Part shown: piece by piece, positions 26,401 to 27,020 of the stretch
How the letters are laid out: every line of letters starts with the position of its first letter
How positions within the stretch are numbered: the stretch's first letter is position 1
Assembly (NCBI RefSeq): GCF_009671065.1
Contig: NZ_CP046027.1
Location: forward strand, 2,485,161 to 2,517,160
Direction of reading: 5' to 3'
DNA length: 32,000 bases
Source of the DNA: Neisseria brasiliensis
Lineage (GTDB): Bacteria; Pseudomonadota; Gammaproteobacteria; Burkholderiales; Neisseriaceae
Position numbers and translations under genes: made by a program
Notes under the pieces: generated by a model
What the model saw: only the letters and a program-made list of their open reading frames with translations
What the model was told of the DNA's origin: nothing
The model's database searches: none

Positions 26401-26505
26401 GGTGCCAATCAAACCGAAGCTCATTTGGGCAGAAACCCGAATCTGGCCAATGATCTGAAACAGCGCCCGGGCAGCGGATCCCGCACCTTCCGCCCAAAGC
26501 AGTAG
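23431..26505 (+). CDS. traG: Conjugal transfer mating-pair stabilisation protein TraG (TraG_N domain, large polytopic membrane protein)
   Basis: The N-terminal half has multiple TM segments and the TraG_N pattern, followed by a long Ser/Ala/Gln-rich C-terminal region. It follows traH as in F-like and SXT-like systems. Confidence 0.88.
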   Translation: MAVEYFTFAGNGEAVQGVFNAVATLSSSNTMTGALQAAALFGFLVTLFVAVYKIDLKDNFVYLFVIAGVWMGMMVPKTTVLITETAGHGFTGRQYTVGNVPIGLAYSANMVSTFGHHLTRRAEQIYNIPNELNYSQTGVLFGARLIEQIRDVSIPDATLTQDWALFMNQCSFFDLNLYHFYTVEDLRDSADILATLGNTNRAMFTNVSKLKSGANVGGNFANSRLQYEGGSTSMTCDKAYQLLKARTEFYSQGYLPNYVADKVFAGLGTSTAPNKATALATLGNNSFQYLLNNARVDTLKNIEQSAMVEIIRQSTIINGQRNNHAARVQEVFAFTQARNQYITAQKTGGLMASKNLPVVRSVAEAVLIGIFPFVVILALLAGIAAFKLIMFYVMALFWIQLWAPVASIINFVLTIHTRRLFNAETAVGMITPGSGDGLLMAAADAQAAAAGAMWLVPVISGALVMGGRTLLGALTGMATAAKSGAESAGSQAGTGNFAAGNMNYNNANANKYSLNPVYTDPQMTTAHSAAGTSWMNAASGTSRYQARNSSLAVSSQSQISESENYGRMADRAETAARQHQAAYQESMALGQAQTLAWAGKHSFGQSADSGYGMGLDAAQSQKMSWTQEQAQNLAQKHSYSNSSAIQSALTASLGIGMDSQQLDKLTGSMSKGMKGLDQLGRQSGVEASIARIISNTLKGNVQGGWKGDAINKDALVADIGKSISAGHKEGITFDSSFTDKVSSSAAYKNSLSSGDELAQGASASIQRAQQASRSATDSFNEAQSYREQAQRTYGNGKTVTYDNTNDLIANNPDLTLSQLNSGEGNTFQTAISTADRRSAQMDVAAQTAGWKSDGGLTPDSRPQNTVDSSYQSNVASVAGASQAAFEGVRERAARSGIRADSVDAAISKRGLDYEQDFNQARSGVDSDVAQSGHRYDSRVDDLANRARKADENSNGMMMELNSHVLPWNAGGERREQVMQDVRDGKGPLGSGANQTEAHLGRNPNLANDLKQRPGSGSRTFRPKQ

Positions 26506-26618
26506 CCCCGACCGATGGTTATCGGGGCAACGGGGCAAAATCATACGGCAGCGGCAAAGAAACGCTGGGGCCGCTTTTACCCGGTGCGCATACGATTATC
26601 AGTCCGTTTGGTAAGCGG

Positions 26619-27020
26619 GTGCATCCGATTTTAAAAACAGTGAAAGAACATAAAGGTGAAGATTATCGCGGTACTGTCGGCACACCATTATTAGCACCTT
26701 TTAGCGGTCGGGTCGTGGAGAGTCGTTACCAGGCAAAAACTGTAATTCGAAACGGTCGTAAAGTAACTGTAGGATGGGGGCATACTGTAGTGATCCAAGC
26801 TTCAAATGGGGTTCGCTATCGTGCTTCTCATATGAAGGGAGCCAGCCCTTTACGATATGGTGACTCTGTTGCTAAAGGTCAAAAGATTGGCCAACTTGGT
26901 GCCAGTGGCGGCGTGACAGGACCACATCTGGATGCCATGCTTTACACGCCGTCAGGTAATGTGCTTCCGGTCAGTGCGTGGCGTGGTAAAACGTTAAATG
27001 AAATTGCAAGATCTAAATAG
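26619..27020 (+). CDS. M23 (LytM-type) peptidase domain; reading frame open from 26454 with no canonical start covering the full domain
   Basis: HxxxD motif (HKGED, 26649-26663), SHM, and GPHLD in place of HxH. The conserved SPFGKRVHP strand lies upstream of the tracked GTG start in the same frame. Confidence 0.8.
   Translation: MHPILKTVKEHKGEDYRGTVGTPLLAPFSGRVVESRYQAKTVIRNGRKVTVGWGHTVVIQASNGVRYRASHMKGASPLRYGDSVAKGQKIGQLGASGGVTGPHLDAMLYTPSGNVLPVSAWRGKTLNEIARSK

What the first reader, a model, noticed from the sequence alone, without database searches (positions are those of the whole stretch)
26454..27020. Candidate programmed -1 ribosomal frameshift fusing TraG to a start-less M23 peptidase domain
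The TraG frame ends ...TTC CGC CCA AAG CAG TAG, with the stop at 26503-26505. The heptamer C CCA AAG (26493-26499) is an X XXY YYZ slippery motif in the TraG zero frame, and A-AAG is the classic bacterial Lys slip site. Five nt later comes a GC-rich 7-bp stem (GCCCCGA 26505-26511 / TCGGGGC 26522-26528, 10-nt loop). The -1 frame is open from 26454. After a slip it would read PKAVAPTDGYRGNGAKSYGSGKETLGPLLPGAHTIISPFGKRVHPILKTVKEHKGEDY... The conserved M23 N-terminal strand (SPFGxRxHP) lies upstream of the GTG that the ORF track uses. That frame has no ATG, GTG or TTG between 26454 and 26619 and no signal peptide. A stand-alone periplasmic peptidase therefore cannot be produced, whereas fusion to the TraG C-terminus (periplasmic in F-type TraG) would export it. 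The predicted product is about 1196 aa.
Basis: partly seen in the sequence, partly recalled or inferred. Interest (0 to 1): 0.75.

Follow-up and report, generated by a model that had tools for sequence, protein, structure and literature searches.

The report
Frameshift site joining TraG to peptidase
At the end of the conjugation-type gene traG in this Neisseria island, a conserved slippery sequence and RNA hairpin most likely make some ribosomes slip back one base and append a cell-wall-cutting M23 peptidase (EppA-like) that has no start codon of its own. The same signal also precedes the essential gonococcal hydrolase gene atlA.

Summary
traG (23431-26505) ends CGC CCA AAG CAG TAG. The M23 peptidase ORF lies in the -1 frame, open from 26454, and has no ATG/GTG/TTG before 26619. 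The M23 fold already begins at about 26589.

Comparison of 14 distinct traG 3' ends from about 30 loci supports a programmed -1 frameshift:
- The heptamer codons are fixed at synonymous sites, while all nine upstream codons drift.
- The -1 frame between the traG stop and the "annotated start" evolves as coding sequence: synonymous changes, 3- and 6-nt indels, dN/dS 0.07-0.18 in most comparisons.
- The supposed start codon is TTG, CTG, TTA or ATG, the pattern of a Leu/Met residue.
- Gene callers give M23 lengths of 92 to 180 aa.
- A two-tier hairpin starts 5 nt after the heptamer in every eppA-type lineage, with compensatory changes.

No in-frame fusion was found, and none of the papers I could search reports a frameshift here.

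The same heptamer and hairpin precede atlA in classical GGIs. No experiment has yet shown the fusion protein.

The parts
21905..23419 (+). traH, first gene of the traH-traG-hydrolase operon
   Evidence: Pfam TraH 4.5e-74. SD-antiSD duplex -8.5 kcal/mol. The literature treats traH, traG and atlA as one operon (PMC8716806).
23431..26505 (+). traG zero-frame ORF (1024 aa), an F-type mating-pair-stabilisation homologue. It has five predicted TM segments in residues 33-470 and a 550-aa soluble C-terminal region.
   Evidence: Pfam TraG_N 1.9e-78. 100% identical to Neisseria brasiliensis TraG. Hydropathy. dN/dS 0.094 against N. weixii.
26467..26499 (+). Conserved TraG tail PGSGSRTFRPK. It is the only part of the last ~80 TraG residues shared by the eppA-type clades; atlA-type tails share only SGS..FRPK.
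   Evidence: Alignment and codon table.
26493..26499 (+). Slippery heptamer C CCA AAG (X XXY YYZ in the traG frame)
   Evidence: Codons CGC and CCA are each invariant in 14/14 distinct haplotypes, and AAG in 13/14 (one AAA), while all nine codons upstream vary synonymously. C_CC.A_AA.G was the most efficient heptamer measured in E. coli, 54% with the IS3 pseudoknot (PMC4066793).
26503..26505 (+). traG stop codon TAG, one codon after the heptamer. It overlaps the first base of the hairpin.
   Evidence: The same spacing is found in all homologues.
26505..26536 (+). Two-tier RNA hairpin starting 5 nt after the heptamer: basal stem 26505-26510 / 26531-26536, apical stem 26512-26516 / 26521-26525, loop 26517-26520, 3' bulge 26526-30
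   Evidence: MFE -16.7 kcal/mol, z = -2.2. The same architecture is found in all eppA-type lineages with different apical sequences. 95.5% of cells are paired, 3 pairs have changes on both sides, and the covariation score is 0.28 against 0.16 in shuffles (0/500) and <=0.076 in slid controls. No terminator-like T-run and no Rfam match.
26496..26588 (+). Trans-frame linker in the -1 frame (KAVAPTDGYRGNGAKSYGSGKETLGPLLPGA), rich in Gly, Ser and Pro and containing no start codon
   Evidence: Variable sites by codon position 6/8/16. Window vs N. gonorrhoeae: 11 synonymous and 4 non-synonymous differences in this frame, against 2/13 and 3/12 in the other two frames. Indels are 3 and 6 nt. dN/dS is 0.07-0.18 in 5 of 7 comparisons.
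26565..26567 (+). CTG (Leu), the column that annotators of homologues used as the start codon
   Evidence: Across haplotypes this column is TTG, CTG, TTA or ATG. No Shine-Dalgarno sequence lies upstream (-1.7 kcal/mol, against -9.3 for traG).
26589..27020 (+). M23 metallopeptidase domain (EppA-like) with its stop codon. HxxxD is at 26649-26663; the HxH position reads HLD at 26925-26933.
   Evidence: Pfam 3e-17. PDB matches 3slu and 6muk from residue 32 of the trans-frame part. 79-85% identical to the Neisseria M23 proteins. dN 0.10-0.17 with saturated dS.
26619..26621 (+). First canonical start codon (GTG) in the M23 frame. It lies inside the conserved SPFGKRVHP strand.
   Evidence: SD duplex only -2.9 kcal/mol. 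The corresponding codon is GTT in N. gonorrhoeae.
27033..27200 (+). ych1-like small acidic ORF (55 aa) immediately after the peptidase, with its own Shine-Dalgarno sequence
   Evidence: AAGGAAG, -6.4 kcal/mol. A 53-55 aa ORF follows the M23 gene in every full-length eppA-type locus.

Best explanation
The region is a programmed -1 ribosomal frameshift cassette at the 3' end of traG in a Neisseria GGI-type type IV secretion island.

Proposed mechanism (inferred). Ribosomes translating traG place CCA in the P site and AAG in the A site, with a GC-rich two-tier hairpin 5 nt downstream. A fraction re-pair to CCC AAA. Those ribosomes read through the TAG as GCA GTA GCC, melt the hairpin, and translate 173 further codons. 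This adds a linker of about 30 residues rich in Gly, Ser and Pro, followed by an EppA-like M23 peptidoglycan endopeptidase domain. The product is a 1196-aa TraG-EppA fusion. Ribosomes that do not slip stop at TAG and give the 1024-aa TraG. The peptidase therefore has no initiation site of its own. It is made in a fixed ratio to TraG and is physically tethered to it.

Shown here: the sequence signals, their phase, their evolutionary conservation, and the coding signature of the trans-frame linker.

Inferred: that slippage actually occurs, how efficient it is, and where the peptidase domain ends up. The TraG C-terminal region is probably cytoplasmic. Access to peptidoglycan would then need a further step, such as passage of the TraG C-terminal region through the secretion machine, or release of the domain.
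For: 1. Geometry. The heptamer is in phase, the stop follows one codon later, the M23 ORF is in the -1 frame, and the hairpin starts 5 nt after the heptamer.
2. Heptamer conservation. In 14 distinct traG 3' ends from N. gonorrhoeae, N. weixii, N. brasiliensis, two unnamed Neisseria species and metagenomes, CGC and CCA are invariant and Lys is AAG in 13 and AAA in 1. AAA is still a slippery codon. All nine preceding codons use two to four synonymous codons.
3. Narrow shift window. In the gonococcal clade the -1 frame opens only two codons before the heptamer (TAA). The shift must therefore occur within about six codons that contain the heptamer.
4. Coding signature of the 'intergenic' stretch. 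It evolves as protein in the M23 frame only: 11 synonymous and 4 non-synonymous differences, against 2/13 and 3/12 in the other frames. Ser switches between AGC and TCA/TCG. Indels are 3 and 6 nt. dN/dS is 0.07-0.18 in 5 of 7 comparisons and 0.41-0.45 in the two most distant.
5. No consistent initiator. The column used as start is TTG, CTG, TTA or ATG. TTA is found in L012, L017, L018 and N. weixii. Gene callers output 92, 133, 142, 147, 151 and 180 aa, including CTG and ATC 'starts'.
6. No Shine-Dalgarno sequence before any candidate M23 start (-1.7, -2.9, +0.3 kcal/mol), whereas traH, traG and ych1 have one (-8.5, -9.3, -6.4). No promoter-like site in the junction.
7. The M23 fold starts upstream of the first canonical start codon.
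8. Hairpin. It is conserved in all eppA-type lineages, with lineage-specific apical stems and compensatory pairs.
9. C_CC.A_AA.G is the most efficient -1 heptamer measured in E. coli (PMC4066793).
10. The peptidase is under long-term purifying selection (dN 0.10-0.17, dS saturated), so it is expressed somehow.
11. The same heptamer and a homologous hairpin precede atlA, a non-homologous hydrolase that is also in the -1 frame and lacks a signal peptide (PMC6365954 Table 2).
Against: - No experimental evidence for a trans-frame product. I could not read the primary eppA paper (Kohler et al. 2013).
- The hairpin's stability is only moderately unusual in single sequences (z = -1.7 to -3.95). Much of it also encodes conserved residues (VAP, GNGA), so RNA and protein constraints are confounded.
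- The linker is short (25 codons), so substitution counts are small. Two comparisons give dN/dS of about 0.4.
- I could not check whether Neisseria lacks tRNA-Lys(CUU), the property that makes A-AAG so slippery in E. coli. No tRNA gene lies in the window.
- A TraG C-terminus in the cytoplasm would leave a peptidoglycan hydrolase on the wrong side of the membrane, so the biological logic is incomplete.
- In this genome the island is truncated: no traI...traF genes lie between traD and traH. The module may no longer serve a working secretion system.
- According to reviews, eppA-type gonococcal islands do not secrete DNA (PMC6365954).
Confidence: 0.78

Rival explanations
1. The peptidase is a separate protein. 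It is initiated independently, or by termination-reinitiation after the traG stop, at a weak or non-canonical codon: CTG 26565 here (TTG or ATG in relatives) or GTG 26619. The hairpin would then act as a translational-coupling element that terminating ribosomes melt.
For: Annotation pipelines call separate genes. One lineage has ATG and many have TTG at the column of 26565. In atlA-type islands a conserved ATG sits directly after the 3' arm of the hairpin, and GGAGG lies 10 nt upstream in the gonococcal copy. That arrangement is the classical geometry for coupling. From my memory of the Kohler et al. 2013 abstract (not re-read), purified recombinant EppA was active on its own.
Against: TTA occupies the start column in four haplotypes and CTG in two or more. 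No Shine-Dalgarno sequence is present. GTG 26619 is GTT in N. gonorrhoeae and would cut off a core strand of the M23 fold. This model does not explain the coding-type substitution pattern and the 3n indels upstream of the start column. It also does not explain the frozen synonymous sites of CGC CCA AAG.
Confidence: 0.12
2. The arrangement is a dead or dying gene. An ancestral in-frame TraG-M23 fusion suffered a 1-nt indel, or the assembly contains an error. The M23 ORF would then be an untranslated remnant.
For: The island in this genome is truncated. eppA-type gonococcal islands are reported not to secrete DNA (PMC6365954; PMC10301925).
Against: The same frame relationship is found in about 30 independent assemblies of several species and metagenomes, so it is not a sequencing error. 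No in-frame fused relative appears among 5.8 billion clustered proteins or 1.84 billion representatives; only two representative clusters score below 1e-30, and both are short. The M23 ORF stays open and shows strong purifying selection, with dN 0.10-0.17 at saturated dS, and it was exchanged by recombination as an intact allele.
Confidence: 0.03
3. The frame change happens at the RNA level. RNA polymerase slips on the CCC or AAA runs, so some mRNAs carry an extra or missing base.
For: The outcome, a trans-frame fusion, would be the same. Bacteria do use transcriptional slippage in some genes (general knowledge).
Against: Known productive slippage needs homopolymer runs of about 7 or more bases. 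Here the runs are 3 nt. This model would not need a hairpin at fixed 5-nt spacing or the exact X XXY YYZ phase, yet both are conserved.
Confidence: 0.02
4. The conserved block of heptamer plus hairpin serves another purpose, and its frameshift-like appearance is incidental. It could be an mRNA-stability or processing element, or a conserved recombination joint at which hydrolase cassettes (atlA or eppA) are swapped.
For: Nucleotide identity between the window and N. weixii drops from 92-94% to 67-75% just after the cassette. The cassette is shared by atlA-type and eppA-type islands whose flanks are unrelated. It therefore does mark a mosaic boundary.
Against: This does not explain how a peptidase under selection, without a start codon, is translated. 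It also does not explain why the linker evolves as coding sequence. A recombination joint and a frameshift site are not mutually exclusive.
Confidence: 0.05

Closest known systems
traG3-eppA-ych1 module of class III / supercluster B gonococcal genetic islands (Kohler et al. 2013, as summarised in PMC10301925, PMC8895040, PMC6365954)
   Same: Same gene order: traH, traG, M23 peptidase, then a ~55-aa ORF. The M23 part is 79-82% identical to the N. gonorrhoeae protein. The heptamer, stop spacing, frame relationship and hairpin are the same.
   Different: The window's TraG is only about 57% identical to gonococcal TraG and has an unrelated C-terminal ~70 residues before the shared tail. The island is truncated here. 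The papers I could search treat eppA as an ordinary separate gene, and none mentions frameshifting.
Bacterial -1 programmed frameshift sites of the heptamer-plus-structure type (E. coli dnaX A AAA AAG; IS3/IS911 orfA-orfB; phage tail chaperone G/GT)
   Same: X XXA AAG heptamer decoded by tRNA-Lys. Downstream stem-loop at 5-nt spacing. The zero-frame stop is close to the site. The fusion product carries an extra C-terminal domain and is made at a fixed ratio to the short product.
   Different: The host gene is a type IV secretion membrane protein, and the added module is a peptidoglycan hydrolase. No upstream Shine-Dalgarno-like stimulator was evident. Efficiency is unknown. No experimental proof exists.
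traG-atlA junction of classical (class I/II) gonococcal genetic islands
   Same: Identical TTC CGC CCA AAG, with the stop one codon later. A homologous basal stem (A/G)CCCCG...CGGGG(T/C). The hydrolase gene is in the -1 frame, open from the heptamer, and has no signal peptide (PMC6365954 Table 2).
   Different: The downstream enzyme is a lambda-R-like lytic transglycosylase, not an M23 peptidase. atlA keeps a conserved ATG right after the hairpin, so independent or coupled initiation is possible there. The short linker shows little protein-level conservation.
Dedicated cell-wall hydrolases of type IV secretion systems (VirB1 / F Orf169 / LtgX lytic transglycosylases; multidomain hydrolases such as PrgK or TraG of pIP501 in Gram-positives) - from general knowledge
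   Same: A secretion-machine-specific peptidoglycan-cutting enzyme encoded within the transfer operon.
   Different: Those enzymes have their own start codon and a signal peptide or membrane anchor. None is known to me to be appended to a mating-pair-stabilisation protein by recoding.

Membership tests
Programmed -1 ribosomal frameshift site (bacterial heptamer type) | X XXY YYZ heptamer in phase with the upstream (zero) frame | tested here: met
   C CCA AAG at 26493-26499 in the traG frame.
Programmed -1 ribosomal frameshift site (bacterial heptamer type) | The downstream ORF is in the -1 frame, overlaps the end of the zero-frame ORF, and lacks a conserved initiation site of its own | tested here: met
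   The -1 frame is open 26454-27020. There is no ATG/GTG/TTG before 26619. The start column varies between TTG, CTG, TTA and ATG. No Shine-Dalgarno sequence.
Programmed -1 ribosomal frameshift site (bacterial heptamer type) | Stimulatory RNA structure 5-9 nt downstream of the heptamer | tested here: met
   The hairpin starts 5 nt after the heptamer in all eppA-type lineages, at -16 to -19 kcal/mol, with compensatory changes. That it stimulates slippage is inferred, not measured.
Programmed -1 ribosomal frameshift site (bacterial heptamer type) | Evolutionary conservation of the heptamer beyond what the protein sequence requires | tested here: met
   CGC and CCA are invariant in 14/14 haplotypes, against 0 of 9 invariant upstream codons.
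Programmed -1 ribosomal frameshift site (bacterial heptamer type) | Trans-frame protein product detected, dependent on the heptamer | not testable with these tools
   Needs a reporter assay, western blot or mass spectrometry.
Gonococcal genetic island family, traG3-eppA-ych1 variant | traH-traG followed by an M23 endopeptidase gene and a small ych1-like ORF in place of atlA-ych | tested here: met
   Gene order in the window matches L001-L004 of N. gonorrhoeae. M23 identity is 79-85%.
Gonococcal genetic island family, traG3-eppA-ych1 variant | Complete F-like transfer gene set (traI, ltgX, traL...traF) adjacent to the module | tested here: not met
   In the window only traD and a DUF4400 gene precede traH. 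About 1 kb separates traD from traH. IS elements and a filamentous prophage flank the region. This is a truncated island.
Peptidase family M23 (LytM-type zinc endopeptidases) | Significant match to the family profile and to solved members | tested here: met
   PF01551 63 bits (cut-off 28.7). 3slu and 6muk at 2e-11.
Peptidase family M23 (LytM-type zinc endopeptidases) | Zinc/catalytic motifs HxxxD and HxH | tested here: inconclusive
   HKGED is present at 26649-26663. The HxH position reads HLD in the window and in all homologues. Reviews call EppA an M23 endopeptidase (PMC6365954). From memory of the Kohler 2013 abstract, the purified protein cut peptide cross-links, which would mean the variant motif is active. 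I could not re-read that paper.
F-type TraG (mating pair stabilisation / entry exclusion protein) | TraG_N membrane domain followed by a long variable C-terminal region | tested here: met
   PF07916 covers residues 4-485. Five hydrophobic segments and a 550-aa C-terminal region.

The most novel reading that the evidence does not exclude
The frameshift cassette (TTC CGC CCA AAG, a stop one codon later, and a CCCCG/CGGGG hairpin) is a general feature of Neisseria GGI-type secretion islands. On this reading, different cell-wall hydrolases that lack signal peptides are made as C-terminal extensions of TraG: the M23 peptidase EppA, and the lytic transglycosylase AtlA that gonococcal DNA secretion requires. 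That would explain how these enzymes are recruited to the machine and dosed. The conserved cassette would also act as the recombination joint at which hydrolase modules are swapped between islands.
Probability: 0.4. Interest if true: 0.85.

Novelty: new member of a known kind. Interest (0 to 1): 0.7.

Why it matters
The gonococcal genetic island is carried by a large share of N. gonorrhoeae isolates, and its secretion system exports DNA that fuels gene exchange. Its two alternative hydrolases, AtlA and EppA, have no signal peptide. [quoted passage not shown]

If these enzymes are made as extensions of TraG by ribosomal frameshifting, three things follow:
- Current annotations of eppA, with six or more different start sites, are wrong.
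- Past genetic constructs that expressed eppA or atlA alone, or that tagged the TraG C-terminus, may not have reproduced the native protein.
- The stoichiometry and location of wall-cutting activity at a type IV secretion machine would be set by a recoding signal, which I did not find described for any such system in the literature I could search.

The prediction can be tested directly with one western blot or one reporter construct.

Tried and rejected
- Plasmid collection megablast with the junction: no match.
- Primary papers (Kohler 2007, Kohler 2013, Callaghan 2017 and 2021, Koch 2020) are not held. The experimental TraG topology and the EppA construct used could therefore not be checked. 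What I say about the Kohler 2013 abstract is from memory.
- Long proteins among the remote M23 hits were scanned for TraG_N. None had it.
- The third homologue search, using the predicted fusion peptide, did not return even the known close relatives. It is inconclusive as a negative. Its top hit is only a TraG C-terminal fragment.
- The AlphaFold model of linker plus M23 had pLDDT below 50 for residues 1-52 with a 5-sequence alignment. It was not used, and no fold search was run.
- Rfam: no family matched.
- tRNA scan: no tRNA gene in the window, so the tRNA-Lys repertoire remains unknown.
- Intrinsic terminator or internal promoter at the junction: none found.
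Full report
**What is in the sequence**

traG is an ATG-initiated ORF at 23431-26505. It encodes 1024 aa and matches Pfam TraG_N at 1.9e-78. It ends TTC CGC CCA AAG CAG TAG. C CCA AAG at 26493-26499 is in phase as X XXY YYZ.

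The -1 frame is closed by TGA at 26451-26453 and then open to 27020. It encodes KAVAPTDGYRGNGAKSYGSGKETLGPLLPGAHTIISPFGKRVHPILKTVKEHKGEDY.... This frame matches Pfam Peptidase_M23 at 3e-17. Its first ATG/GTG/TTG codons are GTG 26619 and GTG 26640.

Alignment to solved M23 structures (3slu, 6muk) begins at HTIISPFG, window 26589. A protein started at 26619 would therefore lack a core strand. A slip at the heptamer gives a 1196-aa product. The heptamer alone is not unusual: it occurs 4 times in the window against 5.2 expected.

**Where the window comes from**

The TraG is 100% identical to Neisseria brasiliensis TraG and 96% identical to N. weixii TraG. The closest M23 relatives are Neisseria proteins, including the 147-aa 'M23 family metallopeptidase' of N. 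gonorrhoeae.

In gonococcal genomes that gene follows traF-traH-traG and precedes a 54-aa ORF. This is the traG3-eppA-ych1 arrangement of class III / supercluster B gonococcal genetic islands (PMC10301925, PMC8895040, PMC6365954). The window therefore holds a relative of a known module.

The island is truncated here. traD and a DUF4400 gene on the minus strand are followed after about 1 kb by traH-traG-M23-ych1. No traI...traF genes are present, and IS110 and IS1595 transposases and a filamentous prophage lie alongside.

**Comparative test of the frameshift hypothesis**

I collected about 30 loci: N. gonorrhoeae, N. weixii, two unnamed Neisseria species and metagenome contigs. They give 14 distinct traG 3' ends.

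1. Geometry. Every locus keeps the heptamer in phase, the stop one codon later, and the hydrolase gene in the -1 frame.

2. Synonymous sites. The nine codons before the heptamer all vary synonymously. Arg uses CGA, CGC, CGT and CGG; Pro uses all four CCN codons; Gly, Ser and Thr also vary. The heptamer codons are different: CGC is found in 14/14 haplotypes, CCA in 14/14, and AAG in 13/14. The exception is AAA, which is still slippery.

3. Shift window. In the gonococcal clade the -1 frame is closed by TAA only two codons before the heptamer. The frame change must therefore occur within about six codons.

4. Coding signature of the 'intergenic' stretch. It behaves as coding sequence in the M23 frame alone.
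   - Variable sites by codon position are 6/8/16.
   - Window vs N. gonorrhoeae shows 11 synonymous and 4 non-synonymous differences in that frame, against 2/13 and 3/12 in the other two frames.
   - Ser alternates between AGC and TCA/TCG.
   - The length differences are 3 and 6 nt.
   - dN/dS of the 25-codon linker is 0.07-0.18 in five comparisons and 0.41-0.45 in the two most distant.

5. The 'start' column. The column that annotators used as a start is TTG, CTG, TTA or ATG. That is the pattern of a Leu/Met residue, not of an initiator. Gene callers output 92, 133, 142, 147, 151 and 180 aa for the same gene. They include a CTG start (L005) and an ATC start (N. weixii).

6. Ribosome binding sites. 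Predicted Shine-Dalgarno pairing is strong for traH, traG and the ych1-like ORF (-8.5, -9.3, -6.4 kcal/mol). It is absent for every candidate M23 start (-1.7, -2.9, +0.3). No promoter-like or terminator-like site lies in the junction.

7. No in-frame fusion. The word-index search returned only 127-151 aa proteins. The exhaustive profile search of 1.84 billion representatives found only two clusters below 1e-30, both short. None of the long remote M23 hits carries TraG_N.

8. Selection on the peptidase. dN is 0.10-0.17 with saturated dS. The gene has been exchanged as an intact allele. Nucleotide identity between the window and N. weixii is 92-94% up to 26500, 67-75% over 26600-27100, and 97% again at 27101-27200.

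**RNA structure**

In all eppA-type lineages the minimum-energy fold starts exactly 5 nt after the heptamer. A basal stem GCCCC(G)/(Y)GGGGC encloses an apical stem whose sequence differs between lineages:
- CCGAT/ATCGG in the window
- TTGGTAAT/GTTATCAG or TTGATAAC/GTTATCAG in the L006, L024 and L027 group
- CGGTA/TATCG plus GCC/GGC in the gonococcal type

Free energies are -16 to -19 kcal/mol, with z-scores from -1.7 to -3.95. On an 11-sequence alignment, 95.5% of cells form standard pairs. Three pairs change on both sides (GC/AU, CG/UA, GC/CG). The covariation score is 0.28, against 0.16 in shuffles (0 of 500 reach it) and at most 0.076 in slid controls.

Part of the hairpin also encodes conserved residues, so RNA and protein constraints overlap and the covariation evidence is moderate. 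Rfam has no matching family.

**Efficiency precedent**

In E. coli, C_CC.A_AA.G was the most efficient of all 64 heptamers, reaching 54% with the IS3 pseudoknot. V_VV.A_AA.R motifs form the top class (PMC4066793). I could not determine whether Neisseria shares the single tRNA-Lys(UUU) situation.

**Extension beyond the finding**

In classical GGIs, traG1/traG2 also end TTC CGC CCA AAG GAA TAA. A 10-13-bp hairpin follows (AACCCCGTTGC...GCAACGGGGTT). Its basal stem is homologous to the eppA-type stem, with G-C replaced by A-U.

atlA is in the -1 frame, which is open from the heptamer (PKGITPLRNATSYGGNGVMWRG...). A diverged atlA-type locus (L028) keeps both hairpin arms identical. Its loop differs and carries a 3-nt indel. 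The Val codon before the atlA ATG is GTT, GTA or GTC.

AtlA has no predicted signal peptide (PMC6365954 Table 2). Because atlA keeps a conserved ATG right after the hairpin, translational coupling is a real alternative there. I rate a TraG-AtlA fusion as possible, not established.

**Mechanism and open point**

The best explanation is a -1 programmed frameshift that yields TraG and, from a fraction of ribosomes, TraG-linker-M23.

- Hydropathy gives five TM segments at 33-51, 60-80, 362-384, 388-412 and 447-470. This places the C-terminal 550 residues on the side opposite the large 83-361 loop.
- The distribution of Lys and Arg favours a cytoplasmic C-terminus.
- From memory, the Kohler 2013 abstract reports one large periplasmic and one large cytoplasmic region.

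How a tethered hydrolase would reach peptidoglycan is therefore unknown. It might pass through the secretion machine with the TraG C-terminal region, or be released.

**Literature**

Full-text searches combining eppA, atlA, traG, GGI and frameshift terms found no report of recoding at this junction. The only frameshift mentions concern phase variation or mutations. The key primary papers are not in the held library, so prior mention there cannot be excluded.

**Verdict**

The frameshift interpretation is strongly supported by comparative genomics, but it has not been tested experimentally. The export rationale is not supported. The finding is a new instance of a well-known recoding mechanism, in a medically relevant secretion island. 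It may extend to the essential hydrolase AtlA.

Noticed in passing
L025:4991-5047, L026:5087-5143, L028:5132-5185, L029:4596-4652: Classical atlA-type gonococcal islands carry the same in-phase C CCA AAG, a stop one codon later and a 10-13-bp hairpin. atlA is in the -1 frame, which is open from the heptamer. The hairpin arms are identical between diverged loci, while the loop differs and carries a 3-nt indel.
   Followed up: partly
window 18451-23419: The island is truncated. traD (19142-20914, minus strand) and a DUF4400 gene are followed after about 1 kb by traH. No traI, ltgX or traL...traF genes are present. Homology to relatives upstream of traH ends about 125 nt before its start codon.
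   Followed up: partly
window 26500-27200 compared with L020 (N. weixii): There is a mosaic boundary at the frameshift cassette. Nucleotide identity is 92-94% up to 26500, 67-75% across the M23 gene, and 97% again in the 3' part of the ych1-like ORF. The peptidase allele has been swapped by recombination.
   Followed up: yes
window 26925-26933: The canonical M23 HxH motif reads HLD (GPHLDAML) in the window and in every homologue retrieved. HxxxD (HKGED) is intact.
   Followed up: no
window 27033-27200: A small acidic 55-aa ORF (ych1-like) with a strong Shine-Dalgarno sequence starts 13 nt after the peptidase stop. It is conserved in every full-length eppA-type locus, and a 52-aa ORF follows atlA. 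It could be a partner or inhibitor of the signal-less hydrolase.
   Followed up: no
window 26546-26573; L001 about 4983-5007: A second predicted hairpin, about 10 nt after the first, encloses the Leu codon that annotators used as the start (window CGGC..CGGC/GCTG..GCCG; gonococcal GGCTCAGG/TTTGGGTC). Its conservation was not tested.
   Followed up: no
window 10680-17358: An IS110-family transposase is followed by a filamentous (Nf/MDA-like) prophage block with Zot, TspB and a rolling-circle Rep protein. An IS1595-type transposase lies at 17585-18262 and a tyrosine integrase at 9603-10625.
   Followed up: no
window 27823-29017: A cold-shock-domain gene and a YhaV/PrlF-type toxin-antitoxin pair lie on the minus strand downstream of the module. 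The same genes occur downstream of eppA in N. gonorrhoeae loci L001-L004.
   Followed up: no
window 4641-6408: efp lies next to earP (EF-P arginine rhamnosyltransferase), the arrangement typical of beta-proteobacteria. This chromosomal flank also holds lon, riboflavin synthase and rpe.
   Followed up: no
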